Shown: piece by piece, positions 1,640 to 14,123 of the stretch
Position numbering within the stretch: the first letter of the stretch is position 1
How the letters are laid out: every line of letters begins with the position of its first letter
Source: a virus
Length of the DNA stretch: 64,000 bases
IMG/VR virus record: IMGVR_UViG_3300036766_000889
Direction: 5' to 3' (one strand)
Position numbers and translations under genes: made by a program
The notes under the pieces: model-generated
The model's database searches: none
What the model was told of the DNA's origin: nothing
Seen by the model: the letters and a program-made list of their open reading frames with translations, nothing else

Positions 1640-2197
1640 ATGGAATTGAAATTATGTCGAAAATGTGGACAGGAAAAACCTTTGATAAAATTTCCGAAAC
1701 AGAGGAAAAATCCTATGAAAAGGACAAGTCCCTGTCTCAGATGCTCAGAGAAAAAACGATTAAATAATCCAAATAGTGTAATCGGGAAAACTGTTTTACG
1801 CAGAAGAAAACTGTATTTATCAAATCCAAATAACATTCCTTCTATCATTATTCGGAGCGCGAGACATTATGATAAAACTCATACTAAATACGGTTTTGAC
1901 TTGGATCATGATTTTGTTTCTGCATTAATTGCAGATGGATGTAAATACTGTGGTATTAATAATGTGAGGATGACGCTTGATCGTATTGATAATCAGTTAG
2001 GACATCTGAAATCAAATGTTCATCCAGCTTGTGTGCGATGCAATCATATCCGTGGTTCAATGCCATTTGATGCCTGGATGAATATGGTTCCTTCGATTCG
2101 AAAGACGTATGAACTTGGTCTATTCGCAGATTGGTGGATCGACACCAAGTCCATTTATAAATCAAATATCATACCATTTGTCTCTTCTAGTACCTAG
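1640..2197 (+). CDS. HNH-type (homing) endonuclease
   Basis: CKYCG...TLDRIDNQLGHLKSNVHPACVRCNH motif; AT-rich; opposite strand to neighbours. Confidence 0.8.
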   Translation: MELKLCRKCGQEKPLIKFPKQRKNPMKRTSPCLRCSEKKRLNNPNSVIGKTVLRRRKLYLSNPNNIPSIIIRSARHYDKTHTKYGFDLDHDFVSALIADGCKYCGINNVRMTLDRIDNQLGHLKSNVHPACVRCNHIRGSMPFDAWMNMVPSIRKTYELGLFADWWIDTKSIYKSNIIPFVSSST

Positions 2198-2799
2198 GGT
2201 TCTAGTTCAGCGTCCCAATACAACCAAGAACGCCAGCATTCTGGAATGTCCTTTATAGATTCCATACGTAAAGCTGCAATCGGAAGCGACTTGGGACGTA
2301 CCGGCTGATTCAAAAGGTACATACCGGCTTCAGCGGGCGTACGATTACGCTTGATGGAGTTGCACGGGTAGCAACTCATCACGATGTTCTCCCAGACCGT
2401 TTTACCGCCTTGGGCACGAGGAATTACATGATCAAAATTCAGATCACGCATATTGTGCTTGGCTCCGCAATACTGACAAGCGAACTTGTCTCGAGTCAGC
2501 ACGTTGATCCGGCTGAACTTCACTACTTTCTTCTTGCCGATCTTACCGAGCAGTCGGATTACGGCCGGAACCCTAACCACGAACGTATCCGGGTCAGAGT
2601 CCTCCACGCCAAGCTCGAACCAGGCAAGCATCTGCTTGCTGACCTGCAAGCCATTAGCTGCGTCCCTGGAAATAGCCCGGACAACGTCCGTGTACAGCTC
2701 TACGACTTCAGCACGACCGTCGTGAAGAAGCTGGGCAGCACGCTGCCAACTCACGACTCGGTGAGGTTGAAAACCAATATCTAGGACTAATGTTCTCAT
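2194..2799 (-). CDS. HNH endonuclease, McrA-like
   Basis: RDKFACQYCG...DHVIPRAQGG...WENIVMSCYPCNSIK; directly downstream of Ro60/Y RNA cluster. Confidence 0.88.
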   Translation of the reverse strand: MRTLVLDIGFQPHRVVSWQRAAQLLHDGRAEVVELYTDVVRAISRDAANGLQVSKQMLAWFELGVEDSDPDTFVVRVPAVIRLLGKIGKKKVVKFSRINVLTRDKFACQYCGAKHNMRDLNFDHVIPRAQGGKTVWENIVMSCYPCNSIKRNRTPAEAGMYLLNQPVRPKSLPIAALRMESIKDIPECWRSWLYWDAELEP

Positions 2800-2811
2800 A
2801 TTAATTATTAA

Positions 2812-2937
2812 GTGGTAACAAAATTTAGTGATTCAATTTCAGCTGCTCTACCACTGAGCTATACATAACTTTCGCTATGTAATTGGACTTGAACCAATGA
2901 CCCGCTGTTTGGTTGTAGAACCACCGGCATTTACCAC
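2812..2937 (-). ncRNA. yrlA: YrlA-type bacterial Y RNA
   Basis: Closing stem GTGGTAA/TTACCAC. Inside, in permuted order: T-arm ATTGG-TTCAAGT-CCAAT, closed acceptor-like hairpin TACATAGC-GAAA-GTTATGTA, D-arm TAGCTCAGTGGTAGAGC. Next to TROVE gene. Confidence 0.85.
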
Positions 2938-2967
2938 ACAATAAATGGAAACTATACCATAAACATA

Positions 2968-3173
2968 TGCTGACAACAAGGTTCGCAGAGATGTTTACAT
3001 TATCGGTGTAATCCCATGCAGCATTTGTCAACGTTATTTATACTGACAACGAAATTCGTAGAGATTTTTACAGTTTAAATGTAATCCCTACAGCATTTGT
3101 CAGCGTTATTTGTACTGACGACAAAATTTACAGAGATTCTTTTTACCTGTAGTCCCTGCAGCATTCGTCAGTG
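2968..3173 (-). ncRNA. Tandem array of three ~61-66 nt short Y-RNA-like hairpins (2968-3033, 3041-3105, 3113-3173)
   Basis: Each has closing stem (C/T)TGAC(A/G)A...T(C/T)GTCAG, a 5' AATGCTG motif and a 3' AA(T/C)(T/C)T(T/C)GT motif resembling the YrlA stem; starts 5 nt after the Ro60 stop. Confidence 0.7.
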
Positions 3174-3178
3174 TTATT

Positions 3179-4735
3179 TTATCCTACACCTATCATTTTC
3201 TCAATCTTTTCGACCCAGGCATCTTTATTGCCACCGTCAATGAAACTTGAAATCACACCGAACACTGCATCACTGAAACCACCAACGTTCAAACGGTCTT
3301 CATCGGTGATTACTTGTGCAGTTTGATTCGGTGTTAGGTCAATACACACAAGCTTGGCTTTACGATTACGCCTCTTGAAAGACAACCACTCGGTCGATAA
3401 ACCGGTACCTCTACGATAACCCCTATCAGCCCAGCTTTCGTTGTCGGAGACATATATCACAAGGTCAGCATTTGCATTTTCCTCGTTAAGCAAAGCGAGT
3501 GGAGCAGAACAGGTGGTACCGCCGCCTCCCACACTTGCAATTTGGGTAGCTAGAGTCATCACACTATCACGAGGATTGATCTTCAAATCAACAACATCTG
3601 TTTCAAACGGGATAACTCTTGCGTTTGGATTCTTGCGCAAAATCGCGGCAGCAATCAACGCAGCTATGTCTATGCAACGAGCCTTAGATGTAGCACCTTG
3701 ACGTTGTCCAGTAATCGGGCTACTCATGCTACCGGAAACGTCTACACAGACTACAACGTTACAATTGTAGCTCGGCACGTTGTTCAGCGAATGCTCCATC
3801 GCGTCCTGTAACGCGTTGGTCAATTCGGCAGGAATGTCAGTTGCATTCAAATATGCCATAAGTAGCTGGTATGGAAATACCCGCGCCTTATTGATTTCAT
3901 CAACATTGCGCAAACGTGCAGCCAGTAGACTAACCATTTCTGGGTTGTCTAGCACACCGTGACGCTTGAACGTGTTGAGATTCATACGAGTCATCTGCCA
4001 ACCAGCATTCTTTGCAACGGTTGTCCAGCCAGCCGTATCAAGATTAAGAGAGTCTAGCATCTGAAATGGGACGTCCGGGATGATCTGACTACGGTCAACC
4101 TTATAATTCTCGTACGCACGTACGAGCTCCGGAAGGTGTTCGACAGTATACGGCTTACCAATTAGATAAGCATACAACGCCTTACGATCGTCGCTAACCG
4201 GGTTCGGGCGAACCATCTTAACCAGATCAGATAGAGACGGCTTCTTTCCGACGCTATCTCGGAAAAGTTGGTCCGATGACCGAGATGCAAACCATTCACG
4301 AAGCATGCGTCGAGGAGCAGAACCAAAGGACTTACGGGACGTCTTACCAGATCGGACAATTTGCGCGAAATTTCTCGCCATTTTGCCATTATCGATAACT
4401 CGTGGAAACACAAGCTTAGCTGCAAGTAAGCCTTCTGGACCACGAGAACATAAATGCGCAAGCAAAATCGCTGGCATATCCTTCATATGACCAAGTTGGC
4501 GTGCATATACAGCGACTTTAGCCACATAACTAACTTCACAGTTAGCTGCGTGCTTCAAAACTTCATCCAACTGGTCAGACGCAGCAGCATAGTACGTGTT
4601 ACCGAAGCAACCGGTAGACGCAATTTGAGCAAGAGCTTGCTTTGACGTAAGCGAGTATGCATTCCCACCGGCATGATTTACAGCCGTTGAAACATGAGCC
4701 TGAGGCAGAGTGTTAAATAGTTGTTGATTTGTCAT
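3179..4735 (-). CDS. rsr: Ro60/TROVE domain RNA-binding protein with vWA domain
   Basis: N-terminal VNHAGGNAY, KDMPA, MTRMNLNTF, ARVFPYQLL, and vWA MIDAS VCVDVSGSM...GGGT...VSDNESW. Confidence 0.95.
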   Translation of the reverse strand: MTNQQLFNTLPQAHVSTAVNHAGGNAYSLTSKQALAQIASTGCFGNTYYAAASDQLDEVLKHAANCEVSYVAKVAVYARQLGHMKDMPAILLAHLCSRGPEGLLAAKLVFPRVIDNGKMARNFAQIVRSGKTSRKSFGSAPRRMLREWFASRSSDQLFRDSVGKKPSLSDLVKMVRPNPVSDDRKALYAYLIGKPYTVEHLPELVRAYENYKVDRSQIIPDVPFQMLDSLNLDTAGWTTVAKNAGWQMTRMNLNTFKRHGVLDNPEMVSLLAARLRNVDEINKARVFPYQLLMAYLNATDIPAELTNALQDAMEHSLNNVPSYNCNVVVCVDVSGSMSSPITGQRQGATSKARCIDIAALIAAAILRKNPNARVIPFETDVVDLKINPRDSVMTLATQIASVGGGGTTCSAPLALLNEENANADLVIYVSDNESWADRGYRRGTGLSTEWLSFKRRNRKAKLVCIDLTPNQTAQVITDEDRLNVGGFSDAVFGVISSFIDGGNKDAWVEKIEKMIGVG

Positions 4736-4780
4736 GATCTAACCTATAATAACATACAATCAAATAAGTTGTTTCAATCG

Positions 4781-4854
4781 TGCTGTGCGCGAGACTCGAA
4801 CTCGCAACCTCTCGGACCTAAACCGAGCGCCTCTGCCAATTGGGCTACCACAGC
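4781..4854 (-). tRNA. tRNA-Leu(TAG), short variable loop
   Basis: CTCGG-TTTAGGT-CCGAG anticodon arm; GCGAG-TTCGAGT-CTCGC T-arm. Confidence 0.85.
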
Positions 4855-4861
4855 AAAACAA

Positions 4862-5009
4862 CGGATGGGTTGGACTTACACCAACAGAGCGCCTGGGCTG
4901 GAGTCGAACCAGCTTCTTACCGTTCAGGAGCAAGCTCGTCAGCTTCGCAGCCTCGGTCGATATTCAGCTCGCTAGCAGCCTATTCCCGCCATTCACTGCG
5001 TTGCCATCC
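4862..5009 (-). ncRNA. tRNA-like RNA with two T-arm modules
   Basis: GGATGG/CCATCC terminal stem, GTTGG-TGTAAGT-CCAAC and GCTGG-TTCGACT-CCAGC arms; no anticodon arm found. Confidence 0.5.
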
Positions 5010-5095
5010 TGGTGCAAGAGATGGGATTTGAACCCATAAGACCTTTCGGTCGGATGATTTTAAGTCATCTGCGTATTCCATTCCGCCACTCTTGC
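5010..5095 (-). tRNA. tRNA-Leu(TAA)
   Basis: GATGA-CTTAAAA-TCATC arm, long variable arm, encoded CCA. Confidence 0.95.
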
Positions 5096-5117
5096 GTAAC
5101 GATTGATCTATTAAATC

Positions 5118-5219
5118 AACCAACCACCAAACAATGCGGGCATCGAACCCACTCAGGTTTCACAGCAGTCTCCAGAGTTGCCACGCCCTGCTGGGGCTAC
5201 TCTTGTTTGGCGGTTGGTT
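5118..5219 (-). ncRNA. Structured RNA with 17-bp closing stem and T-arm
   Basis: AACCAACCGCCAAACAA/TTGTTTGGTGGTTGGTT; GTGGG-TTCGATG-CCCGC. Confidence 0.55.
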
Positions 5220-5262
5220 CATTAAACAGAGTTGCATACGACCCAATTAACTGAATTTACAA

Positions 5263-5916
5263 CTAAACTCGTCCGGAAGCGAAAGCCTTAGCAAATTCTC
5301 GTTTGAAAACTTCCGTCTGATCTTCGGGAAGTATGCCGACGTGGCGATAGAATTCAGTAATTGGGCGTACTACGGGAGCCAAAAAGCTTTCTCGTGATCC
5401 TCTCTGGCCCATGACTGTGGCTTCAATTGGTGTTGCCTTACGGGCGTAATAATTCCAGTTTTTCAAGGAAGTAAGAAATAAAGCGTAGGCCATATTTCCT
5501 ACAACATCCACGATAGCTGCCATATGATGGCCAACGCCATCATTGTGCGTGCAAATAGACCCAACTTTGATCATAGACAAAGGTATGACAGGTGGCGTGA
5601 TATCCGAAACTAGGGGAATTACTTTTTCATCAACGAGACTAAAAGGAGGTGGGAACTCCTCGAGATACTTCAGCATCTCTTCAGCTTTCTGCCGTGGTAG
5701 CGTCGAATCATTATCAAATGCAATAATAGTTGCCGAAGCAAAAATGAACTCATGAACCCCAACATCAGTGCGCGTATAAAACGTTCGAAAAAAACCTTTT
5801 TTTCCACGCAACACGCCACATGTCCACTCTATCATCGTTGCAACAGGCTTTGACTTTGGTATCGCTTTCCCACTGATATAATCTTTCAATGTGAAATCGT
5901 CGTCATTCATAGTCAA
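5263..5916 (-). CDS. Hypothetical protein
   Basis: 217-aa ORF, co-directional, overlaps upstream stop. Confidence 0.7.
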   Translation of the reverse strand: MTMNDDDFTLKDYISGKAIPKSKPVATMIEWTCGVLRGKKGFFRTFYTRTDVGVHEFIFASATIIAFDNDSTLPRQKAEEMLKYLEEFPPPFSLVDEKVIPLVSDITPPVIPLSMIKVGSICTHNDGVGHHMAAIVDVVGNMAYALFLTSLKNWNYYARKATPIEATVMGQRGSRESFLAPVVRPITEFYRHVGILPEDQTEVFKREFAKAFASGRV

Positions 5917-6119
5917 TGTCCAGTTTGAGTACTCGATTTTTCTTCTTTACTCAACCCTTCACCACAGTTACCACAGTTACCACTATGACATAGACCAAAA
6001 CATACAATTATGAACAAAGCTAAAATTGCTGAGTCATCTTTTCTTCGTGCCATTGCTACAAGAACAGCAGTAACTCCGAAAATCATAGCAAGAATTAAAG
6101 TGTTTGTTGATATATCCAT
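5913..6119 (-). CDS. Small two-TM membrane protein with Cys-rich tail
   Basis: AAGGAG SD upstream; two hydrophobic segments. Confidence 0.7.
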   Translation of the reverse strand: MDISTNTLILAMIFGVTAVLVAMARRKDDSAILALFIIVCFGLCHSGNCGNCGEGLSKEEKSSTQTGH

Positions 6120-6135
6120 AAACTCCTTGTATCAA

Positions 6136-6218
6136 TGGTTGCGGGCGAAGGAATTGCACCTACTTGTCCGAGGAACCGGGTTATGAGCCCGGTGGGTTTC
6201 TGTTACCCCATGCCCGCA
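6136..6218 (-). tRNA. tRNA-Met(CAT), initiator-like
   Basis: CCGGG-CTCATAA-CCCGG (consecutive G-C pairs), weak U1-A72, CCA; enlarged variable region. Confidence 0.8.
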
Positions 6219-6235
6219 TAATGTAACGAATTCAG

Positions 6236-6308
6236 TACGGGGTGCGGGACTCGAACCCGCCTCAAACTGCCGTGTAAAAGCAGCGCACTCCCTGAATGCG
6301 AACCCCGC
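6236..6308 (-). tRNA. tRNA-Val(TAC)
   Basis: CTGCT-TTTACAC-GGCAG; T-arm GCGGG-TTCGAGT-CCCGC. Confidence 0.88.
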
Positions 6309-6397
6309 ATAATTATTTCACAACGCGACTTGTTTTCCACAACGTTTACATCGGGCGTCAGGTTCGCCACGTCGTTTCCACCAGTCACGAATTCCAT

Positions 6398-7114
6398 TCA
6401 TGGAATACTAACCTCTCTTGCGTGCCGTTCTTGATTTCGTTTGGAACGCTCTGTCTCAAGTGAACCAATCACATGTTCAAGAATCTTTGCGACAGTTGCA
6501 TAGGATCCGACCTCACAAACGAACGACATCATGCCGTCTTCGTAAACCTTGAAGGTTTCTTCGGGCAGCCCAAGCATGTCGATTCCTTCGCAATACACAC
6601 TTTTGTGGCTGCCAGCCCGGTAAATGCGGCCGTCTTTTCTTATGATGGTGCCGGATGCCCAGTTTTTGTTGTACCACTCATCCGACCCATCGGGCGGCTT
6701 CTCTTTTTTCGTATAACCAACATAACGTTCAACTTCGGCCGCGTACTTCTCTGGGCTCCATTCCGAGTACATCACATGATAGGGGATGTGGATTGGAGAG
6801 TCCGAAATCACCACGACCTTGATATTGTAGAAGTTGTCTCGGATGAAGCAATAGGCCGATACTTGATTGTATGGCGTGAACCTGAAGCAGGAGACCGGAA
6901 GTCCTACTGATTTACTAGTTTGTGTCCCTACAATTCTTGGTGGGTACACTTCATCCTGACTGTAGTTAGGAAGGATGGCCGCCACACCACCAATTTTTAG
7001 GATCTGGTTTTCTACACCACTCCTATAGATCAGATCTTCATCTGGCGCGTTTGTACTGCCCCAGGTTTTGAGGTCGATGCCGTTGGCATAAATTGCGTTT
7101 AGTTCTTGCATCAC
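6398..7114 (-). CDS. Hypothetical protein
   Basis: 238-aa ORF coupled to the HD gene. Confidence 0.75.
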   Translation of the reverse strand: MMQELNAIYANGIDLKTWGSTNAPDEDLIYRSGVENQILKIGGVAAILPNYSQDEVYPPRIVGTQTSKSVGLPVSCFRFTPYNQVSAYCFIRDNFYNIKVVVISDSPIHIPYHVMYSEWSPEKYAAEVERYVGYTKKEKPPDGSDEWYNKNWASGTIIRKDGRIYRAGSHKSVYCEGIDMLGLPEETFKVYEDGMMSFVCEVGSYATVAKILEHVIGSLETERSKRNQERHAREVSIP

Positions 7115-7866
7115 AGAGCAGCCAGGTACACGTCAAAGGAAGCATTTCGAGGAAGTTCACCCGCCTCTACACGTGCTTTCAATTCTGTCATTATGATACC
7201 AAGTTCACGACCAGGCGGTAGGCCGAGATGAGCACCTAAAGCATCACCGAGACCTTTTGGTAGGGCTGGAGGCTTTGAATCAGCTAACCGTAAAAACTCC
7301 ATACGTACTTTAAGACCGTCAACTCGAGAAAGTTGAGCCATACGTTTCGCAGGATGCTTAGTTGTGCAGTCTGCTTCGGCTACTGCTAACACAGAATCAG
7401 CCGCAGGTCCAAGTTCAAGGATCAATCGACGTACCGCTGAATCAGTCCAATCAGGATTGTACGCTTCAACCCTGCCAAGATACCTAATGATAAACTCGAT
7501 ATCTTTTATTTCTGATTCATTAAGCAGAAAACCAAGCCGACTAGCGTCTTTCTCAAACAATTCTGCACCGACAAGTTCATGTACAGGGAAACCGATTTCA
7601 CCATTGGGGTATAGACGAAATGTACGTGGTTTTCCTACATCATGATACAACGCAGCTAGTCGCAAGATAAAAGACGGGCGCGTCTGTTTTACCACCTGTT
7701 TGGTGTGTGCCCATAGATCCTTGTGACCGGTATTTGACCCACCGAACCCGACCAGCCCTTGTACAGCTGGGAACAGTTGCGTTATGTCACCGTTCTCCTG
7801 CAGAGCTTCAAGTTTGACATCTACATCATCACTGATGAGAATTTCATATAGTTCATGTCTATTCAT
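7111..7866 (-). CDS. HD-domain protein resembling the C-terminal half of CCA-adding enzymes (no nucleotidyltransferase head)
   Basis: HKDLWAHT...LRLAALYHDVGKP...HELVGA...LGLPPGRELG; start moved to ATG 7866 because the longer ORF overlaps a tRNA. Confidence 0.85.
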   Translation of the reverse strand: MNRHELYEILISDDVDVKLEALQENGDITQLFPAVQGLVGFGGSNTGHKDLWAHTKQVVKQTRPSFILRLAALYHDVGKPRTFRLYPNGEIGFPVHELVGAELFEKDASRLGFLLNESEIKDIEFIIRYLGRVEAYNPDWTDSAVRRLILELGPAADSVLAVAEADCTTKHPAKRMAQLSRVDGLKVRMEFLRLADSKPPALPKGLGDALGAHLGLPPGRELGIIMTELKARVEAGELPRNASFDVYLAAL

Positions 7867-7907
7867 GGTGAAAACACTACGTTCGGTACAGGGAAATTTA
7901 CACTCTG

Positions 7908-7976
7908 TGCCACCGGACGTAATCGAAACGTCACCGACGCCCATATGAAAGGCGCGTTCTTCCTAAGATCGATGGC
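7908..7976 (-). tRNA. tRNA with CAT anticodon (Met or Ile2), minimal D-arm
   Basis: GCCATCG/CGGTGGC acceptor; CGCCT-TTCATAT-GGGCG. Confidence 0.7.
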
Positions 7977-7979
7977 TTG

Positions 7980-8051
7980 TACCCTCGGCAAGACTCGAAC
8001 TTGCATGTACTTCGTTCGTAGCGAAGTGCCCATCCTTTGGACCACGAGGGT
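7980..8051 (-). tRNA. tRNA-Arg(ACG)
   Basis: CTTCG-CTACGAA-CGAAG. Confidence 0.9.
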
Positions 8052-8068
8052 ATGAATTAAACGGACGG

Positions 8069-8140
8069 TGATCACGGCGGGACTCGAACCCGCATCAGCC
8101 AGCTTCGGAGGCTGGTGCCCTTCCTTTAGGCGTCGTGACC
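8069..8140 (-). tRNA. tRNA-Arg(CCG)
   Basis: CCAGC-CTCCGAA-GCTGG. Confidence 0.9.
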
Positions 8141-8214
8141 TGGTGCCCGCGAGAGGATTTTCACCCCTATCAACTACTTAATTGGTAGACGTGCTAGAAT
8201 TGCACCACGCGGAC
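8141..8214 (-). tRNA. Atypical tRNA (loop CAATTAA, nominal anticodon ATT, A33)
   Basis: Cloverleaf with CCA end but non-canonical anticodon loop and T-loop TGAAAAT. Confidence 0.55.
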
Positions 8215-8218
8215 TTAG

Positions 8219-8291
8219 CACCCCCGGCAGGAATCGAACCTACATAGTTCCGCTTAGAAGGCGGACGCCTGATCCATTAGACTACGGGGGC
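8219..8291 (-). tRNA. tRNA-Arg(TCT)
   Basis: TCCGC-CTTCTAA-GCGGA. Confidence 0.92.
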
Positions 8292-8302
8292 AAGATATTC
8301 GG

Positions 8303-8371
8303 AGACCCGCGATAGATTTGAACTATCTTAATTAGTTTTGCAGACTAACCGCCTCACCTGAGGAACGGGTC
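8303..8371 (-). tRNA. tRNA-Cys(GCA)
   Basis: TTAGT-CTGCAAA-ACTAA; U73; short D-arm. Confidence 0.85.
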
Positions 8372-8576
8372 ATATTTTTGAATCTTCCTGTCCATTCACC
8401 AAACGCGTCGACTTAAGTTTACACTCGGGCCAATTGAAACGGATCCAACATGATTCCCCAAGACCATCTCGGTGCCGATGCCAGCCTTGCTTCCAAAGAT
8501 GCCAAGGCAGACGTGGGTATAACAACTGGACCGAGCCACTCAACTCAACGGAACGAACACCTTTAACCATCACCAT
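8370..8576 (-). CDS. Small hypothetical protein
   Basis: Fills gap between tmRNA and tRNA-Cys. Confidence 0.45.
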   Translation of the reverse strand: MVMVKGVRSVELSGSVQLLYPRLPWHLWKQGWHRHRDGLGESCWIRFNWPECKLKSTRLVNGQEDSKI

Positions 8577-8592
8577 CGAACTATCCCCATTG

Positions 8593-8982
8593 TGGACTCG
8601 TGCGGAATCGAACCGCAGTCCTACAAGACTAACGAGCAGCTTCTACGTGTGTATCTGGAGTTCCGAGTGTTAATAAGCACCCCGGTGTCCCAGCCTCCAT
8701 GCTTTGGGGCGCGACAGGTTTCCCTGCTTTGCCTCCACCATCTGTCTGTAAAGTGAACTTCCCACAGCCGTCAGAACGCCGTGGCACAGGTTGCTTTTAA
8801 TCACGCCGCACGGAGTCGATGGCAACTACCTACTCCGTGCAACGGTTTCACGCGGCCTTTAGGACCGGTGCAACATATGCGTTGTCGTTCGCACTTACGT
8901 TGGTCTCTTGATAACCCGGCCTGAAGACCATCCGGGACACGCTGCTACTTATATCATCTCGCAGTCGAAACCTTTCGAGCCC
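8593..8982 (-). ncRNA. ssrA: tmRNA; tag peptide ANDNAYVAPVLKAA* (8848-8892)
   Basis: 5' GGGCTCGAAAGGTTTCGAC; acceptor GGGCTCG/CGAGTCC-A with G3.U70; 3' T-arm; resume context TAAGT GCG AAC GAC AAC; tag ends in AA. Confidence 0.95.
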
Positions 8983-9033
8983 GTATAACAGAACAATTAA
9001 GTTAACAAAAGTACAATCAAACCAAGTAAACCA

Positions 9034-9213
9034 TCAATCTTCGTTATGCCCGATGAGTGGTGATTTACCTGGACAAAGGCAGTGATACTTGATGAAATCA
9101 CAAACAGGGCAAGGCTCTACGCCTAGCAATTGAGCCAAGAACCGAATATGATCCGGGTTATCGGCCGCAGCACGAGCTAGGATCTCAATGGCTTCGTACG
9201 ACGAAATTTTCAT
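9034..9213 (-). CDS. Small hypothetical protein with CxxC motif
   Basis: MKISSYEAIEIL...CPVCDFIKYHCLC. Confidence 0.55.
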   Translation of the reverse strand: MKISSYEAIEILARAAADNPDHIRFLAQLLGVEPCPVCDFIKYHCLCPGKSPLIGHNED

Positions 9214-9231
9214 TTCTATCCTACAGATCGG

Positions 9232-9302
9232 TGCGAGCGGAGAGAATCGAACTCTCACTTACGGTTTGGAAGACCATCGTGCGACCATCACACCGCGCTC
9301 GC
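9232..9302 (-). tRNA. tRNA-Gly(TCC)
   Basis: ATGGT-CTTCCAA-ACCGT. Confidence 0.9.
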
Positions 9303-9357
9303 TTTTTGTTTTCGTCCCAGTGCAACTTACCGTGGCAATTTGCGCAAAGCACCAAGT

Positions 9358-9399
9358 CCTGCTTGGAAGGCTGATGCCAGGCCATTAGACGTCGCTCGC
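9358..9399 (-). pseudogene. 5' half of a second tRNA-Gly(TCC)
   Basis: GCGAGCG acceptor strand, D-loop and CTTCCAA loop; no T-arm or 3' strand follows. Confidence 0.55.
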
Positions 9400-9429
9400 G
9401 AAAATTACACTAGCGGAATTGAAATGAAA

Positions 9430-9834
9430 TTATGTTTTTGGACCTGTTCCGAAATAGGGTGTTGCAAACCCGCCTTTGATCAATTCTTGGTTAGCGTTAA
9501 ACTCAGGTTGATCAGGCGGGGTCACGAAAATGTCTGCTAAATACCGTCCATATTTATCGGGTTTGTAACTAACAATTCGAATGGTCCCCGTATCAAGCAA
9601 ACGAGACAACTCTGTTGACGAAGCCAAACCCGCTTGCTTCGTCACCCCGACGACTTCAGGAGTATTAATCCCATACAAACGAAATTCAACGATTGCTTCT
9701 TTAAGTAAAATAACAGAGTCTAGGATATTGAATCCAAAATCAACTGGAAGGGTAAATGTCTTACTCAGTTTCAAATAGACTGTATCACCGTCTACGACTC
9801 GATGGACTGTGGCCTGATATTCATATTGTTTCAT
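9430..9834 (-). CDS. Thermonuclease (SNase-like) family protein
   Basis: RVVDGDT...RLYGINTPE...DKYGRYLA motifs. Confidence 0.92.
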   Translation of the reverse strand: MKQYEYQATVHRVVDGDTVYLKLSKTFTLPVDFGFNILDSVILLKEAIVEFRLYGINTPEVVGVTKQAGLASSTELSRLLDTGTIRIVSYKPDKYGRYLADIFVTPPDQPEFNANQELIKGGFATPYFGTGPKT

Positions 9835-9866
9835 ATACCTACCGTACCAACTTCATAATCGGTTTA

Positions 9867-9938
9867 GGGCCCTATGACAGAATCGAACTGTCCTAACGTG
9901 CTTACAAAACACGGACATCACCACAATGTTTATAGGGC
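9867..9938 (-). tRNA. tRNA-Thr(TGT)
   Basis: CGTGT-TTTGTAA-GCACG. Confidence 0.88.
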
Positions 9939-9983
9939 AAGCATACGTCACAAATTGACGGTTTAAATCATATCCCGGTATAG

Positions 9984-10052
9984 TGGAGAGACCGGGAATT
10001 GAACCCGGCGCGGTCGGTTTGCAAGACCAACCTCCGCCCCAGCGGCCTCCCC
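9984..10052 (-). tRNA. tRNA-Ala(TGC), short D-arm
   Basis: TTGGT-CTTGCAA-ACCGA; G3.U70. Confidence 0.82.
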
Positions 10053-10080
10053 GAAATTTTTATCGAGTGTCTAAAGGTGT

Positions 10081-10365
10081 ATGATGAAACCACTAGAAGC
10101 CCTAGACAGTGCGATAAGTTATGGTCTCAGGCACCATCAATTCAATCGACGTGGAGTGTATGGAAAAACTCCCGGAGCAGTCATCGGACGAATTGGTGAC
10201 GAAGCTCGAGAAGCTTTATCCAAACTCACATCTGATGAATTAGCTGGTGTGCGTATTGAAAAAGATGAAGTAGGTAGTGATGATTATTTCGCGGATCTTG
10301 AGGTCCGGAAACTCAAGATAGCTTTTGATCAAAAATGCAAGTATCGTGTTACACGACCTTCATAG
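10081..10365 (+). CDS. Hypothetical protein inserted antisense in the tRNA array
   Basis: AAGGTG SD, 94 aa, fills the inter-tRNA gap. Confidence 0.65.
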   Translation: MMKPLEALDSAISYGLRHHQFNRRGVYGKTPGAVIGRIGDEAREALSKLTSDELAGVRIEKDEVGSDDYFADLEVRKLKIAFDQKCKYRVTRPS

Positions 10366-10436
10366 GGCCCGCACCGCGAATTGAACGCGGGTCTCGATCT
10401 TACCGGGATCGAATACTACCATTGTACTATGCGGGC
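10366..10436 (-). tRNA. tRNA-Thr(GGT), C33
   Basis: CGATC-CCGGTAA-GATCG. Confidence 0.82.
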
Positions 10437-10443
10437 AAACTAG

Positions 10444-10516
10444 AGCCCCTGATCGGGATCGAACCGACCTAGCCCTCCTTACGAAAGAGGTACCTCTCCA
10501 TTGAGGTGACAGGGGC
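10444..10516 (-). tRNA. tRNA-Thr(CGT)
   Basis: CCTCT-TTCGTAA-GGAGG. Confidence 0.9.
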
Positions 10517-10521
10517 ATCGG

Positions 10522-10592
10522 TGGAGATCCGGAGAATCGAACTCCGATTTCTAGCTTGCAAGGCTAGCACACGCCCGTTGTGTTAGATCCCC
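10522..10592 (-). tRNA. tRNA-Ala(TGC)
   Basis: CTAGC-CTTGCAA-GCTAG; G3.U70. Confidence 0.9.
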
Positions 10593-10601
10593 ATGATACA
10601 G

Positions 10602-10673
10602 TGGACGTGGCTGGAATCGAACCAGCGGCTTCCTGCGAGTCATGCAGGCACTCGGCCTCTGAGCTACACGTCC
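10602..10673 (-). tRNA. tRNA-Val(GAC)
   Basis: CCTGC-ATGACTC-GCAGG. Confidence 0.88.
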
Positions 10674-10681
10674 GTATAAAT

Positions 10682-10757
10682 TGGTAGGCCGTGAGGGGAT
10701 CGAACCCTCTCCTGTCGCTTATAAGGCGACTGCACTGAACCACTGTGCTAACGGCCC
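10682..10757 (-). tRNA. tRNA-Ile(TAT)
   Basis: GTCGC-CTTATAA-GCGAC; CCA end. Confidence 0.9.
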
Positions 10758-10761
10758 ATAA

Positions 10762-10950
10762 CTATTTCGAAGACTTGATCAATTCCGTGATTCGCATGTG
10801 CTGAAGAGTCAAAATCGCGGCTATCTGTGCTTGCGTCATGCTACCAATGACATCTAGCGCAGACTGAAACAAATCTATGGACGGATGTCCCTTGTCCAGC
10901 AAAGAAGCTATGTATCGTTTGATCACAATCTGCTCTTCTTCGTATTCCAT
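10762..10950 (-). CDS. Small hypothetical protein
   Basis: AGGAGG SD; 62 aa. Confidence 0.7.
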   Translation of the reverse strand: MEYEEEQIVIKRYIASLLDKGHPSIDLFQSALDVIGSMTQAQIAAILTLQHMRITELIKSSK

Positions 10951-11014
10951 GATTCCTCCTATGCTATGCTACAAAACCGGTCCATGCAGAGATAATCGAA
11001 CTCCCATAGTTCGC

Positions 11015-11569
11015 CTATAACAACAAACGTCTGGACTCCAGGCTACTCTCCGAAGACTCTCGATCGGCTAACTCATGCAACTCGCCATGACAGTTGGCGC
11101 AGACCAGCATGGTCTTATCCAATTCCAGCTTCAACTTAGCCCAGCCTGATACCGATCTTGTTGCTACCGTGAAATCCTTACTTGCTGGATCCGTATGGTG
11201 GAAAACCATCGAACGAAGACACTTATCATAACCGCAGCGACAACATACCCCGCCTTTATAGGCGACGGCCATGGCTTTGAGCGATGTTCGTTTTCGGTTG
11301 GCTACGCAAGAGTTGCAGAAAACCCTGGTGGCCCCGCGCCTTGCGCTTCGCAAATAACTATATTTGCGAAAACAGCTGGTGCACCTAATTTCTACAGGCT
11401 TCCGGGTATGCCTAGATCCAGGCAAAATTGGCCGCGAATTTCTGGAACCGTAGGGAGAGCAGGTAAAGCAATACTTCCTCTTGGAAAGAGCCATCCGCCT
11501 TCCGTTTATAATTACCGTGGCTGGTATTTCAACGTCGCAAGCCAAGCACCGCTTAGTGGTAGTAGACAT
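11015..11569 (-). CDS. HNH homing endonuclease with Zn-finger N-terminus
   Basis: YKGGVCCRCGY...FHHTDP...LVCANCHGELH. Confidence 0.88.
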   Translation of the reverse strand: MSTTTKRCLACDVEIPATVIINGRRMALSKRKYCFTCSPYGSRNSRPILPGSRHTRKPVEIRCTSCFRKYSYLRSARRGATRVFCNSCVANRKRTSLKAMAVAYKGGVCCRCGYDKCLRSMVFHHTDPASKDFTVATRSVSGWAKLKLELDKTMLVCANCHGELHELADRESSESSLESRRLLL

Positions 11570-11631
11570 AACGCCATATCATACCATAAGACGAGCGCAT
11601 TAGAAAAGCCAGGACGACCTCAAGCCAGCGT

Positions 11632-11705
11632 TGGTTGGCCCGGAGGGAATTGAACCCTCGCCGCCCGCTTATCAAGCGGATGCACGACCTTCGTGCTGCG
11701 GGCCA
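11632..11705 (-). tRNA. tRNA-Ile(GAT)
   Basis: CCGC-TTGATAA-GCGG; CCA end. Confidence 0.85.
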
Positions 11706-11737
11706 ATGACATCCCCTTCCACTAGACGATGCGTGGA

Positions 11738-11814
11738 TGGTGCTCCAGGCAGGACTCGAACCTGCATAAAAGCCGCTTTAGGAAAGCGGTGCCCATCCTT
11801 TGGACCACTGGAGC
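11738..11814 (-). tRNA. tRNA-Arg(CCT)
   Basis: CCGCT-TTCCTAA-AGCGG; CCA end. Confidence 0.92.
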
Positions 11815-11816
11815 AT

Positions 11817-11893
11817 TGGGTTACATGGCGGGAATCGAACCCAGCTAACACCTGATCCACAATCAGGCCGCTATCCATTAGCGTTCATGCAAC
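11817..11893 (-). tRNA. tRNA-His(GTG)
   Basis: CCTGA-TTGTGGA-TCAGG; G-1:C73; CCA end. Confidence 0.88.
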
Positions 11894-12000
11894 ATAACAC
11901 AGTTTAGGGCCCTTGCGAGGGGTCAATCTCTTACGAGATTCTGCTTCCCGTCACTACAAAGTTTGGCTTTGCGTTTCACCAAGAGTCCCATCCTGTGCGG

Positions 12001-12074
12001 TCGGAGTGACTGGAATCGAACCAGCTCAATCTCTTGCTCCCGAAGCAAGCGGGCAGCCATTACCCCACACTCCG
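12001..12074 (-). tRNA. tRNA-Pro(CGG)
   Basis: CTTGC-TTCGGGA-GCAAG; C1-G72. Confidence 0.9.
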
Positions 12075-12191
12075 TAAAAGAAGACCCCTGATAGCACTCT
12101 ATGGCTTGCTGTACCCGTGAGAGATGGGCCGACGTGCAAACCGAGTAATCTACCGTTTCTCAATCCCTGCCGGGGTCACCGCAGGAAACAG

Positions 12192-12263
12192 TCGAGGTGG
12201 CAAGAATCGAACTTGCGATCTCTGCATCCCAAATGCAGCGCCATTCCACTTGGCTACACCTCG
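12192..12263 (-). tRNA. tRNA-Pro(TGG)
   Basis: CTGCA-TTTGGGA-TGCAG. Confidence 0.92.
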
Positions 12264-12371
12264 ATAAGGGCTGCCGAAGAAGGCGTATCCTTCAGCTTAG
12301 TAGCTTTGCCCTAGCTAGCGTGTCTTTCAGCACGCGACTGGACGCCAGCCAGTCTGACCGTTGCCGGTCGG

Positions 12372-12456
12372 CGGAAGACGGAGGACATGCTCCCCAGACG
12401 CTTGCGCGTCCCCTTGGATTAGCAATCCAGGATGATCCTTGATCATTTCGTCTTCC
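12372..12456 (-). tRNA. Non-canonical 8/4 tRNA-Ser(GCT), allo-tRNA-like
   Basis: 8-bp acceptor GGAAGACG/CGTCTTCC-G, 6-bp D-stem ATGATC/GATCAT, long V-arm, 4-bp T-stem. Confidence 0.7.
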
Positions 12457-12482
12457 AAATTGTCACAGCTCTTTGTTGATTA

Positions 12483-12680
12483 TCAGCGACGATGAAAAGC
12501 CACGATGAGAAGGATCACTCCATCCTTGTCTTGGTAGCGCCATTCCCCGCGATGCTTTTCGTACCGCTCCAGGCTACCCAAAAGACCACGGGCTTGATTC
12601 CTGGTTAGATCAAACCACGGTCCCCATGATTTGGAGCCGTGGAAGCGACAAGCGGTGTACTCGATCCATCCGTGTTCCAT
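12483..12680 (-). CDS. Small hypothetical protein
   Basis: 65-aa co-directional ORF in inter-tRNA gap. Confidence 0.55.
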   Translation of the reverse strand: MEHGWIEYTACRFHGSKSWGPWFDLTRNQARGLLGSLERYEKHRGEWRYQDKDGVILLIVAFHRR

Positions 12681-12738
12681 GACCTAAAGACGTTTGCCTT
12701 TTAGCCAACTGACACATGGCGGAGAAAATAGGAGTCAG

Positions 12739-12819
12739 CGGAAACCGGACGAGAACGCCATGCCTTGCGGCACACACCATTTTCGAGATGGGTCTTGCTC
12801 CTCAGCAAGTTCAGTTTCC
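12739..12819 (-). tRNA. Non-canonical 8/4 tRNA-Ser(CGA) with truncated T-loop
   Basis: GGAAACTG/CGGTTTCC-G, 6-bp D-stem CTTGCT-GAGG-AGCAAG, CCAT-CTCGAAA-ATGG, V-arm GTGCC-GCAA-GGCAT. Confidence 0.6.
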
Positions 12820-12834
12820 AGAGAGCGGGACCAT

Positions 12835-13122
12835 TCAAGGTCGAACTCTGTCTTGCTCCTGCAAGTTCCGTTTCCAATCAGAAATCGTACCGCCCAAGGT
12901 CGAACTCTTGTCTTGCTCCTGCAAGTTCCGTTTCCAATCAGAAATCGTACCGCCCAAGGTCGAACTCTTGCGGGTTCGATCGTTTCCGATCCGGTTTTTT
13001 AACCAGGCAATGTGCAGGGCTGGTGTTGCTTGCGTTTTACCATTACCATTCTTTGCTGAGTCCAACTCCTGTTTCCAGTACAACTCCTGTTTCCGGTATA
13101 GTTCACTTTCCATTTCGTTCAT
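12835..13122 (-). CDS. Small hypothetical protein running into the 60-bp repeat
   Basis: GAGGTG SD before ATG. Confidence 0.45.
   Translation of the reverse strand: MNEMESELYRKQELYWKQELDSAKNGNGKTQATPALHIAWLKNRIGNDRTRKSSTLGGTISDWKRNLQEQDKSSTLGGTISDWKRNLQEQDRVRP
12849..12970. repeat. Exact 60-bp tandem duplication built from tRNA fragments
   Basis: TGTCTTGCTCCTGCAAGTTCCGTTTCCAATCAGAAATCGTACCGCCCAAGGTCGAACTCT x2. Confidence 0.95.
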
Positions 13123-13145
13123 AATTCACCTCATGGATAATACAG

Positions 13146-13228
13146 CGGAAGACGCCGGAATCGAACCGACTCAGCCTTGCGGCCTTATTTGCTTTCCAAG
13201 CAAACTCCTGACCATTCGGATGTCTTCC
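13146..13228 (-). tRNA. tRNA-Ser(GGA)
   Basis: TTTGC-TTGGAAA-GCAAA; long V-arm; G73. Confidence 0.9.
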
Positions 13229-13233
13229 GGTAG

Positions 13234-13317
13234 CGGAGAAGGCGAGAATCGAACTCGCTCAGCCTTTTGGGCCTTATCGGTATTCAAAGCCGACTCCTGA
13301 CCATTCGGGTCTTCTCC
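13234..13317 (-). tRNA. tRNA-Ser(TGA)
   Basis: TCGGC-TTTGAAT-ACCGA; long V-arm; G73. Confidence 0.88.
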
Positions 13318-13354
13318 AACTCGTTACACCGTTCTCTGAGAGTTTGTTCTCCGT

Positions 13355-13534
13355 TCATGCAAGTGTGACTAACTTCCAACCGATACCTTCATCCATCATG
13401 TCAGTATTTGCTATATAAATATCAGAATTTGGAGATTCAACGTCTTCCATAACAGCAGTTCGATGTTCATGACTCAGTTTCAATACGCGCCATAACTTTC
13501 CTTTGCGTTCCCAAACTTCATTTACTTGAGGCAT
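13355..13534 (-). CDS. 59-aa hypothetical protein (below ORF-track cutoff)
   Basis: MPQVNEVWERKGKLWRVLKLSHEHRTAVMEDVES...GWKLVTLA*. Confidence 0.55.
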   Translation of the reverse strand: MPQVNEVWERKGKLWRVLKLSHEHRTAVMEDVESPNSDIYIANTDMMDEGIGWKLVTLA

Positions 13535-13574
13535 GTTTGAACTCTACCGCGTAAGCCACAGACAGTACACTTAG

Positions 13575-13646
13575 CGTCCCGTATCGGAATCGAACCGATG
13601 TTCCCTGACTGAGAATCAGGTTGCCTGGCCTCTAGCAGAACGGGAC
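13575..13646 (-). tRNA. tRNA-Glu(CTC)
   Basis: CCTGA-TTCTCAG-TCAGG. Confidence 0.92.
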
Positions 13647-13647
13647 A

Positions 13648-13724
13648 TGGCGGGACCGACGAGAATCGAACTCGCCTCGACCTGGCGTGACAAGCCAGCG
13701 GCGTCTCCAGACGCCTCCGATCCC
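13648..13724 (-). tRNA. tRNA-Asp(GTC), extended D-stem
   Basis: CTGGC-TTGTCAC-GCCAG; D-arm GGCGTC-TGGA-GACGCC; CCA end. Confidence 0.88.
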
Positions 13725-13829
13725 AAAAGCCGACCGCGACCAACGGAAGTTGTTGATCCGCTGACCAGTGATTCATCGTGCGCACGAACGCCACGGCCAC
13801 GGCGTGTCTTGGCTAGCTAGACCTTCGAC

Positions 13830-13903
13830 TGGTTCGGGCGGAGAGGATCGAACTCCCATAGAAGGTATCAAAAACCTTCGTCTTTCCATTAGACGACGCC
13901 CGA
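13830..13903 (-). tRNA. tRNA-Gln(TTG)
   Basis: AAGGT-TTTTGAT-ACCTT; U1-A72; CCA end. Confidence 0.9.
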
Positions 13904-13912
13904 ATAACACGG

Positions 13913-13983
13913 CAGGGGTAGAGGGAATCGAACCCACGTTGACTGCTTCAGAAACAGCTGCCAAACCACTTGGCGATACCCCA
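13913..13983 (-). tRNA. tRNA-Gln(CTG)
   Basis: CTGT-TTCTGAA-GCAG. Confidence 0.88.
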
Positions 13984-13989
13984 ACGAAG

Positions 13990-14123
13990 TGGACACAACG
14001 GGAATCGAACCCGCTAATTCCTGTTTTTGCAGGATACGGAAAACTGCAGTGACTGATATTTTCGGGTGGCCATCTCCCTACTAACTCAGATCCAGTTTTC
14101 CAGCGCACCGTGGCTTTGTGCCC
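13990..14123 (-). ncRNA. 134-nt tRNA-like RNA with alanine-identity acceptor stem
   Basis: GGGCACA/TGTGTCC-A (G3.U70, A73), T-arm GCGGG-TTCGATT-CCCGT, 9-bp GGAAAACTG/CAGTTTTCC arm in place of an anticodon arm. Confidence 0.65.

What the first reader, a model, noticed from the sequence alone, without database searches (positions are those of the whole stretch)
2812..4735. Ro60 gene followed by four Y-like RNAs: three minimal hairpins and one YrlA
Seen: three diverged ~61-66 nt repeats start 5 nt after the Ro60 stop. Their closing stems show compensatory variation (CTGACGA/TCGTCAG vs CTGACAA/TTGTCAG) and their apical loops vary. A YrlA-like RNA follows. All four share 5'-AATGC opposite a 3' AATTTTGT-like strand next to the closing stem. 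Known: Y RNAs bind Ro60 through a conserved basal stem, and YrlA carries a tRNA-mimic domain. Inference: the shared motif is the Ro60 site, and the short units are an unannotated minimal Y RNA class (gates, decoys or adaptors), possibly linked to the adjacent HNH nuclease at 2194..2799.
Basis: partly seen in the sequence, partly recalled or inferred. Interest (0 to 1): 0.8.

Follow-up and report, generated by a model that had tools for sequence, protein, structure and literature searches.

The report
Phage Ro60 with YrlB-like RNA triplet
A large tRNA-rich phage carries the RNA-surveillance protein Ro60 followed by three short hairpin RNAs and one tRNA-like YrlA RNA; the hairpins are diverged relatives of Salmonella YrlB, a known Ro60 partner, so this is a known kind of system.

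Summary
On the minus strand a Ro60 gene (3179-4735) is followed by three diverged tandem hairpins (3110-3176, 3038-3108, 2965-3036). A YrlA follows at 2809-2937 (Rfam 64.5 bits, E 1.8e-14, just under the cut-off of 69).

All four RNAs share a closing stem, a 5' AAUGC loop and a 3' A/U-rich YUUGU strand.

The hairpins are not a new class. A covariance model built from 30 such hairpins, none from Salmonella, hits the Rfam-certified YrlB of an enterobacterial rsr-yrlB-yrlA-rtcB fragment. YrlB is a published, Rsr-bound Y RNA.

Rfam's own YrlB model misses the window's copies.

In two sets of loci not used to build the model, the same module sits beside Ro60:
- 21 of 67 viral contigs;
- 76 of 80 species genomes (65 with short forms).

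All 305 hits in these sets lie on the Ro60 strand. Some cultured bacteria (Undibacterium) have five short hairpins in a row.

The HNH link is not supported. That HNH family also occurs away from Ro60, for example at the end of a tRNA array.

The scan's earlier notes on other DNA describe hairpin arrays beside Ro60-like genes, but with a different handle (ACAGCAA).

Verdict: a new member of a known kind, of moderate interest.

The parts
3179..4735 (-). Ro60/Rsr orthologue (TROVE + vWA with DxSxS MIDAS motif), 518 aa
   Evidence: Pfam vWA_Ro60 and TROVE both pass their cut-offs. PDB 2NVO Rsr matches at E 1.7e-18 over residues 19-501. It is 55-57% identical to bacterial Rsr proteins and 99% to P0001. 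D332, S334 and S336 are invariant in alignment A1.
3110..3176 (-). Short Y RNA unit 1 (YrlB-like hairpin); 5' motif GACGAAUG
   Evidence: MFE -17.9 kcal/mol, z -3.4. R2 scores 61.3 bits, E 2e-13. Its motif fits GNCGAAN0-1G (PMC4201824).
3038..3108 (-). Short Y RNA unit 2 (YrlB-like hairpin) with an apical UACA/UGUA mini-stem
   Evidence: MFE -19.4 kcal/mol, z -4.1. R2 scores 63.1 bits.
2965..3036 (-). Short Y RNA unit 3 (YrlB-like hairpin), with one bulged U in the upper stem
   Evidence: The fold is. R2 scores 61.1 bits.
2809..2937 (-). YrlA-type Y RNA with a tRNA-like module (T-arm GGUUCAAGUCC, D-arm UAGCUCAGUGGUAGAGC)
   Evidence: Rfam RF02553 scores 64.5 bits (gathering score 69), E 1.8e-14, across model positions 1-114. 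L004 shows a compensatory U-A to C-G change.
2194..2799 (-). HNH endonuclease, an adjacent gene judged not to be part of the Ro60/Y RNA unit
   Evidence: Pfam HNH_5 and phrog_16726. Homologues lie away from Ro60 in Rctr197k, at the end of a tRNA array, and in Atu_ph07.
4780..4854 (-). tRNA-Leu(UAG), 45 nt upstream of the Ro60 start; it marks the end of the tRNA array that the Ro60 unit continues
   Evidence: ARAGORN and Rfam tRNA at 50.9 bits.

Best explanation
This is a phage-borne Ro60/Y RNA module of the bacterial rsr-yrlB-yrlA type. Ro60 is encoded at the downstream end of a long same-strand tRNA/tmRNA array. Three tandemly duplicated YrlB-like hairpin Y RNAs and one YrlA follow it.

All four RNAs carry the same Ro60-binding module: a closing stem, the 5' strand GNCGAAUGC (GNYRAAUGC in this phage), the 3' strand YUUGUC, and an upper stem ending in GA(C/U)UACA.

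Inferred mechanism:
- The RNAs are cut out of a read-through transcript. No terminator-like site lies between Ro60 and the HNH gene, and A/U-rich AAAUAAC linkers separate the units.
- Each RNA binds the outer rim of the Ro60 ring through the shared module.
- YrlA, through its tRNA-like domain, tethers Ro60 to an effector such as host PNPase. This has been shown for Deinococcus and Salmonella, and in vitro for Thermus phage phiLo.
- The short hairpins occupy or gate Ro60 without that effector domain, or present small variable apical loops to other partners.

Shown here: sequence, fold, covariation, synteny and strand, and homology to a certified YrlB. Inferred: expression, processing, Ro60 binding and function during infection.
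For: - Ro60 is identified, and YrlA.
- All three units fold into the same two-helix hairpin.
- On a structure-blind MAFFT alignment of 30 short hairpins from Ro60 loci, 93.9% of cells pair, against 66.5% in shuffles and at most 59.6% with slid partners. Fifteen of 16 pairs show compensatory changes.
- Model R2 contains no Salmonella sequence, yet it hits the Rfam-certified YrlB (RF02565, 105.5 bits) of an rsr-yrlB-yrlA-rtcB fragment at 33.6 bits, E 3e-6.
- Independent loci: 58 hits in 21 of 67 viral contigs and 247 hits in 76 of 80 species genomes, all on the Ro60 strand. Short forms (90 nt or less) occur in 19 and 65 of those loci.
- Metagenome loci, which include the training sequences: 204 hits, none inside Ro60, 186 within 1 kb of it, with hit lengths peaking at 70-80 and 110-150 nt.
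- There are no other R2 hits in the 64-kb window or in unrelated loci.
- The gene order matches the Salmonella rsr-yrlBA-rtcBA operon (bioRxiv 10.1101/312249; PMC7790460).
- Phage Ro60 binding phage-encoded Y-like RNAs and host PNPase is published for phiLo (PMC12135203).
Against: - There are no expression, end-mapping or binding data for this phage.
- Rfam's YrlB model gives no hit on the units at E up to 10.
- YrlA falls 4.5 bits below Rfam's gathering score.
- Units 2 and 3 and the YrlA carry A instead of G at position 4 of GNCGAAN0-1G. The change is compensated in the stem, but it is rare in the family (3 of 30 sequences).
- The apical loops are A-rich, not the 'small pyrimidine-rich loop' described for YrlB and Yrn2 (PMC4201824).
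- The closest cultured-phage Ro60 locus (Mx1, 48% identity) has no such RNA within the 4 kb fetched on either side of its Ro60 gene.
- Within the window alone the covariation is weak.
Confidence: 0.8

Rival explanations
1. The three hairpins are decaying tandem copies of a YrlA that lost its tRNA-like module. They are pseudo-Y RNAs with no role.
For: The copies are tandem and about 81% alike. Unit 1 lacks 4 nt of the apical mini-stem and has a C·A mismatch in this window. Covariation within the window alone is weak.
Against: - Every difference in the stems except one keeps pairing, and the one mismatch is a U-A pair in the 98% relative.
- Short forms are a distinct length class, present beside Ro60 in 65 of 80 genomes and 19 viral contigs.
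- The class includes the expressed, Rsr-bound Salmonella YrlB (PMC4201824).
Confidence: 0.07
2. The hairpins are cis-acting 3' elements of the Ro60 mRNA, such as stabilisers, processing sites or attenuators, rather than separate RNAs that bind Ro60.
For: They start 6-7 nt after the stop codon. No convincing promoter of their own was found. The one sigma-70-like site (3204-3176) belongs to a scan whose total count does not exceed chance.
Against: - The conserved single-stranded letters are those of the YrlA Ro60-binding module.
- In other loci the same hairpins lie upstream of Ro60 (57 of 204 hits) or between tRNAs.
- No U-tract follows them.
Confidence: 0.06
3. Ro60, the Y RNAs and the downstream HNH nuclease form one functional unit.
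For: The HNH gene starts 10 nt after YrlA on the same strand. Full-length homologues (28-90% identity) lie within 3 kb of Ro60 in 10 other fetched loci, with a partial match in an eleventh. Phage Mx1 has one about 4.5 kb from its Ro60.
Against: - Only 11 of about 158 Ro60 loci have it, at changing positions, upstream or downstream.
- The best homologue among deposited phage records (Rctr197k) sits at the end of a tRNA array with no Ro60 within 6 kb. In Atu_ph07 it is also not next to Ro60.
- It occurs in Pseudomonas, Rhizobium and cyanophage records, groups that do not appear among those named in the Ro60 search summary.
- The window has other homing-type nucleases in the same region. In L002 a LAGLIDADG-like ORF occupies the equivalent spot.
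Confidence: 0.04

Closest known systems
Salmonella Typhimurium rsr-yrlB-yrlA-rtcBA operon; YrlB (Rfam RF02565) and YrlA (Rfam RF02553)
   Same: The order is the same: Ro60, then short hairpin Y RNA(s), then the tRNA-like YrlA, all on one strand. The basal module is the same: closing stem, CGAAUGC, upper stem ending GAUUACA, and 3' UUGUCG.
   Different: This locus is phage-borne, has three short copies instead of one, and has no RtcB or RtcA next to it. It sits inside a tRNA/tmRNA array. Rfam's YrlB model does not detect the copies. The motif has A at position 4 in three of the four RNAs.
Hairpin-type second Y RNAs of other bacteria: M. smegmatis YrlB, D. radiodurans Yrn2 (Chen et al. 2014, PMC4201824)
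   Same: They are Ro60-linked RNAs that form one long hairpin without a full tRNA-like domain and are encoded beside Ro60 together with a tRNA-like Y RNA.
   Different: Those RNAs were found by immunoprecipitation and were not linked to one another by sequence. They are described as having a small pyrimidine-rich loop, whereas the loops here are A-rich.
Thermus phage phiLo Ro60 with Yrl1/Yrl2 (PMC12135203; PDB 9KOP, 9L5Y)
   Same: A phage Ro60 with phage-encoded hairpin Y-like RNAs carrying a CGAA motif. Binding to Ro60 and ternary complexes with host PNPase were shown in vitro.
   Different: The phiLo Ro60 is only about 22% identical. Its RNAs lie upstream of the gene. Model R2 finds nothing in the phiLo locus.
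Mycobacteriophage (cluster C) and other actinophage Ro60 + YrlA loci (Chen et al. 2014)
   Same: Large tRNA-rich phages that encode Ro60 and a YrlA-type RNA.
   Different: Their Ro60 proteins are 21-26% identical to this one. Model R2 gave no hit in the eight fetched loci, which are six actinophages plus phiLo and CcrPW.

Membership tests
YrlB-type (hairpin) Y RNA | Encoded close to (within about 2-4 kb) and on the same strand as a Ro60/Rsr gene | tested here: met
   The units start 6-7 nt after the Ro60 stop, on the same strand.
YrlB-type (hairpin) Y RNA | Long stem formed by the 5' and 3' ends, carrying GNCGAAN0-1G on the 5' strand (PMC4201824) | tested here: met
   Unit 1 has GACGAAUG. Units 2 and 3 have GACAAAUG, with the partner C changed to U.
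YrlB-type (hairpin) Y RNA | No tRNA-like (T-arm/D-arm) effector domain; a single hairpin | tested here: met
   The units are 67-72 nt with only a 0-4 bp apical mini-stem. There are no tRNA or YrlA hits on them.
YrlB-type (hairpin) Y RNA | Detectable homology to Salmonella YrlB | tested here: inconclusive
   Rfam RF02565 gives no hit at E up to 10. However, model R2, built without Salmonella sequences, hits the certified YrlB at 33.6 bits, E 3e-6, and R1 hits it at 15.2 bits.
YrlB-type (hairpin) Y RNA | Small pyrimidine-rich apical loop (a descriptive feature in PMC4201824) | tested here: not met
   The loops are A-rich, for example UUUAAAC and CCGAUAA.
YrlB-type (hairpin) Y RNA | Bound by Ro60/Rsr in vivo and dependent on it for accumulation | not testable with these tools
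   This needs RIP, EMSA or Northern blots.
YrlA (Rfam RF02553) | Full-length match to the covariance model with T-arm and D-arm, within 4 kb of Ro60 on the same strand (criteria of Chen et al. 2014: E below 5e-5) | tested here: met
   Model positions 1-114 align at E 1.8e-14, 242 nt downstream of Ro60.
YrlA (Rfam RF02553) | Score at or above Rfam's gathering cut-off (69 bits) | tested here: not met
   The score is 64.5 bits. Many YrlA RNAs beside related Ro60 genes also score 56-68 bits.
Ro60/Rsr protein | TROVE (HEAT-repeat ring) plus C-terminal vWA domain with MIDAS DxSxS | tested here: met
   Pfam TROVE and vWA_Ro60, PDB 2NVO, 1YVP and 9NEN, and invariant D332, S334 and S336.
Free-standing HNH homing endonuclease (for 2194-2799) | HNH catalytic domain; patchy distribution at varying genomic positions | tested here: met
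   Pfam HNH_5. Distribution is shown. Cleavage and mobility were not tested.

The most novel reading that the evidence does not exclude
YrlB-like hairpins are not a Salmonella oddity. They would be the commonest partner RNA of this Ro60 subfamily, present beside Ro60 in most genomes and in many phages, often as tandem arrays of two to five copies with variable apical loops.

In that reading they form a modular adaptor or gate set. In tRNA-rich phages the set would be co-processed with the tRNA operon and used to redirect host RNA decay or to guard phage tRNAs.

I found no paper in the held library that describes this breadth. Chen et al. 2014 state that YrlB searches found only Salmonella orthologues.
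Probability: 0.3. Interest if true: 0.55.

Novelty: new member of a known kind. Interest (0 to 1): 0.38.

Why it matters
For this window, it assigns four unannotated RNA genes and explains the non-coding stretch after Ro60.

More generally, the model built here links Salmonella YrlB to hundreds of short hairpins beside Ro60 genes in bacteria and phages. Rfam's YrlB model found none of them in the 26 Ro60 loci scanned. That gives the Ro60 field a testable family of effector-less Y RNAs. It also gives phage systems in which to ask what Ro60 does during infection, with candidate roles as gate, decoy or adaptor.

It is an extension of known biology, not a new kind of system.

Tried and rejected
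- A megablast of the region against deposited phages found nothing.
- An exact-pattern scan of viral contigs for the hairpin's 5' half gave one chance match inside a coding region (L003).
The nearest usable relative besides the 98% copy is about 56% identical.
- Phage Mx1 (L001) has a hairpin with a U-run right after Ro60 and no Y RNA. L002 has one hairpin 1.4 kb downstream, behind a LAGLIDADG-like ORF.
- Six actinophage loci, phiLo and CcrPW gave no R2 hit.
- The sigma-70-like site at 3204-3176 would start transcription at unit 1. The scan's site count is not above the shuffled expectation, so I give it little weight.
- No whole genome is held for this window, so the host and total genome size are unknown.
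- Two reviews of bacterial Y RNAs (PMC10870794, PMC6047535) were not held. I cannot exclude that they mention wider YrlB-like RNAs.
- I checked the non-coding gaps at 4855-5009 and 5096-5262 for tRNA-like or other Rfam families. Only a sub-threshold ARAGORN call appeared.
Full report
**What is there**

The window is phage DNA. It encodes tail-fibre-like proteins, an SNF2 helicase, a DnaB helicase split by an intein with a LAGLIDADG domain, and several homing-type nucleases. It carries 33 tRNA genes and a tmRNA on the minus strand between 4780 and 16934. No whole genome is held for it, and megablast finds no match among deposited phages.

At the downstream end of the tRNA array, 45 nt after tRNA-Leu(UAG), lies a 518-aa ORF at 3179-4735 (-).
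- It matches Pfam vWA_Ro60 (72.8 bits) and TROVE (26.1 bits).
- It matches the solved Deinococcus Rsr (2NVO, E 1.7e-18, residues 19-501) and animal Ro60 structures.
- It is 55-57% identical to many bacterial Rsr proteins and 48% identical to the Ro60 of Myxococcus phage Mx1.
- The DxSxS MIDAS residues are invariant among its closest relatives.

**The RNAs**

Three tandem units follow the TAA stop on the same strand, at 3110-3176, 3038-3108 and 2965-3036. They are about 81% alike and are separated by A/U-rich AAAUAAC linkers. Each folds alone into an 8-bp closing stem, an internal loop with AUGC on the 5' side and AAUUUUG, AAUUUCG or AACCUUG on the 3' side, and an 8-9-bp upper stem. Two of the three add a 4-bp UACA/UGUA apical mini-stem. 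Seven of the 17 pairs differ among the copies. All but one difference keeps pairing, and three pairs change on both sides. With only three sequences this is weak evidence, because 39 of 500 shuffles do as well.

A YrlA follows. Rfam RF02553 matches 2809-2937 over the whole model, including the T-arm and D-arm, at 64.5 bits and E 1.8e-14. That is 4.5 bits under the curated cut-off, which is why the default scan missed it. YrlA has the same AAUGC / AAAUUUUGU loop next to its closing stem. A metagenome contig whose Ro60 is 98% identical (L004) has the same 3+1 layout. It carries a U-A to C-G double change in the YrlA acceptor-like stem and a C-to-U change that restores a pair in unit 1.

**What the short units are**

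A covariance model of the three units (R1) was searched against 79 metagenome loci that encode Ro60 proteins 50-56% identical to this one. It gave 58 matches at E up to 0.01, six of them the window's and L004's own copies, and every match lay on the Ro60 strand. The matches fell into short forms of about 70 nt and long forms of 100-150 nt. The long forms are largely YrlA RNAs according to Rfam.

Thirty short forms were aligned with MAFFT, which knows nothing of structure.
- Invariant letters are AUGC, A-UACA and the U-G of YUUGUC.
- 93.9% of cells pair, against 66.5% in shuffles and at most 59.6% when partners are slid.
- Compensatory changes occur at 15 of 16 pairs.
- All 30 fold by minimum free energy into the same hairpin.

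A second model (R2) was built from these 30 sequences.

**The link to YrlB**

The link to a known family came from two short GenBank records labelled as unverified phage clones (L084, L085). They are an enterobacterial rsr-yrlB-yrlA-rtcB fragment. Rfam's YrlB (RF02565) scores 105.5 bits at 719-796, and YrlA scores 70.9 bits at 800-918. These lie between the end of a Ro60 ORF and an ORF running off the end of the clone in the rtcB position. R2 contains no sequence from these records, yet it hits that YrlB at 33.6 bits, E 3e-6, pairing the same stems around CGAAUGC, GGGAUUACA and UUUGUCG. R1 also reaches it, at 15.2 bits.

The window's hairpins are therefore YrlB-like RNAs. In Salmonella, YrlB is encoded between rsr and yrlA and is bound by Rsr (PMC4201824; bioRxiv 10.1101/312249; PMC7790460). 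Chen et al. 2014 also report that each of the three species they studied has a hairpin-type Y RNA in addition to the tRNA-like one, and that GNCGAAN0-1G on the 5' strand is the likely Rsr contact. Unit 1 has GACGAAUG. Units 2 and 3 and the YrlA have A at position 4, with the partner base changed to match.

**How general it is**

Two sets of loci that played no part in model building were searched with R2.
- In 67 viral contigs encoding this Ro60 subfamily, R2 found 58 matches in 21 loci. Thirty-four of them are short, in 19 loci, and four loci have three or more short copies.
- In 80 species-representative genomes it found 247 matches in 76 loci. Eighty-eight are short, in 65 loci. The genomes include Variovorax, Neisseria, Undibacterium, Luteolibacter, Pyrinomonadaceae, Verrucomicrobia, Planctomycetota and Myxococcales.

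All 305 matches lie on the Ro60 strand. Two Undibacterium isolates have five short hairpins in a row directly after Ro60, followed by longer forms. In the metagenome set, which includes the training sequences, 186 of 204 matches lie within 1 kb of Ro60 and none lies inside it.

R2 finds nothing else in the 64-kb window, in unrelated loci, or beside the distant Ro60 genes of six actinophages, phiLo and CcrPW. Rfam's YrlB model hit none of these RNAs in the 26 Ro60 loci scanned. This agrees with the statement in Chen et al. 2014 that YrlB searches found only Salmonella orthologues.

**How it most likely works**

Shown here:
- the gene order;
- the shared module and its covariation;
- its strict association with Ro60, including strand;
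- homology to a certified YrlB.

Inferred:
- The RNAs are released from a read-through transcript of the tRNA-Ro60 region. No terminator-like site lies between Ro60 and the HNH gene.
- Each RNA binds Ro60 through the shared module.
- YrlA couples Ro60 to an effector such as host PNPase. This is described for Deinococcus and Salmonella and was shown in vitro for phage phiLo (PMC12135203).
- The short hairpins lack the effector domain, so they gate or occupy Ro60, or offer small variable loops to other partners.
- The three copies look like a lineage-specific tandem duplication kept under structural constraint.

**The HNH gene**

The ORF at 2194-2799 is an HNH endonuclease. Full-length homologues lie near Ro60 in 10 other fetched loci, with a partial match in an eleventh, out of about 158. 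They sit upstream in some loci and downstream in others. The best homologue among deposited phage records (Rctr197k) sits at the end of a tRNA array with no Ro60 within 6 kb. In Atu_ph07 it is also not next to Ro60. The family also occurs in Pseudomonas, Rhizobium and cyanophage records, groups not named in the Ro60 search summary.

The window has further homing-type nucleases nearby: 1640-2197 (+), a GIY-YIG gene at 14727-15653, and the intein in DnaB. In L002 a LAGLIDADG-like ORF sits between Ro60 and its hairpin. The HNH gene therefore tracks tRNA-type arrays, as free-standing homing endonucleases do, and I do not count it as part of the unit.

**Comparison with earlier notes of this scan**

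One earlier first-reader note on this same genome describes the same array and agrees with the observation. Notes on other DNA describe hairpin arrays beside Ro60-like (DUF2828) genes that share a different handle, ACAGCAA. The present case is the canonical Rsr/YrlA/YrlB type, not that family.

**Verdict**

It is wrong that they form a new class, and it is unsupported on the HNH link. This is a new, diverged, triplicated phage member of the YrlB kind. The wider result, that YrlB-like hairpins accompany most Ro60 genes of this subfamily, is a useful extension. I could not find it in the papers held, but two key reviews were not available.

Noticed in passing
window 4780-16934 (-): A same-strand array of 33 tRNA genes and a tmRNA (8590-8982, tag ANDNAYVAPVLKAA). 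The Ro60/Y RNA unit forms its downstream end.
   Followed up: partly
window 7111-7944 (-): A 277-aa HD-domain protein (Pfam HD, 25.9 bits) lies inside the tRNA array. Its neighbouring ORFs, 6398-7114 and 5263-5916, have no family match.
   Followed up: no
window 17934-20771 (-): A DnaB-like helicase is interrupted by an intein that carries a LAGLIDADG domain.
   Followed up: no
window 1640-2197 (+) and 14727-15653 (-): Two further homing-type nucleases: an endonuclease VII/HNH-like ORF convergent with the HNH gene, and a GIY-YIG ORF inside the tRNA array.
   Followed up: partly
window 4855-5009 and 5096-5262 (-): Two non-coding gaps between tRNA genes contain T-arm-like GGTTCGA stretches. ARAGORN calls only a sub-threshold tRNA-Ser(UGA) at 4889-4957, and Rfam finds nothing. 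They may be decayed or unusual tRNAs.
   Followed up: partly
window 3204-3176 (-): A sigma-70-like site (TTGAGA, 17-nt spacer, TAAAAT; 10 of 12 matches) overlaps the Ro60 stop and would start transcription at the first hairpin. The number of such sites in the region is not above chance.
   Followed up: no
L084 919-1039 (and L085 1072-1192): In the enterobacterial rsr-rtcB fragment, a third Y-like RNA lies after YrlB and YrlA. It has the Ro60 module and a T-arm-like GCAGGUUCAAUCCCUGC, and it sits just before the downstream ORF in the rtcB position. Rfam does not report it. The records are deposited as unverified 'phage' clones but look like host DNA.
   Followed up: partly
L232 4128-4725 and L236 4139-4736 (Undibacterium spp.): Five YrlB-like hairpins in tandem lie directly after Rsr, followed by a 111-nt form, with YrlA-type RNAs further downstream. 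These cultured bacteria would be convenient for experiments.
   Followed up: partly
L045 4148-5030 and L056 1641-2758: Another phage-like Ro60 locus (51% identity) in which short Y hairpins directly abut tRNA genes and a tmRNA follows. This suggests co-processing with tRNAs.
   Followed up: partly
L002 4633-6011: In an IMG/VR phage contig (Ro60 49% identical), a LAGLIDADG-like ORF and a 150-aa ORF sit between Ro60 and its single YrlB-like hairpin (5942-6011).
   Followed up: partly
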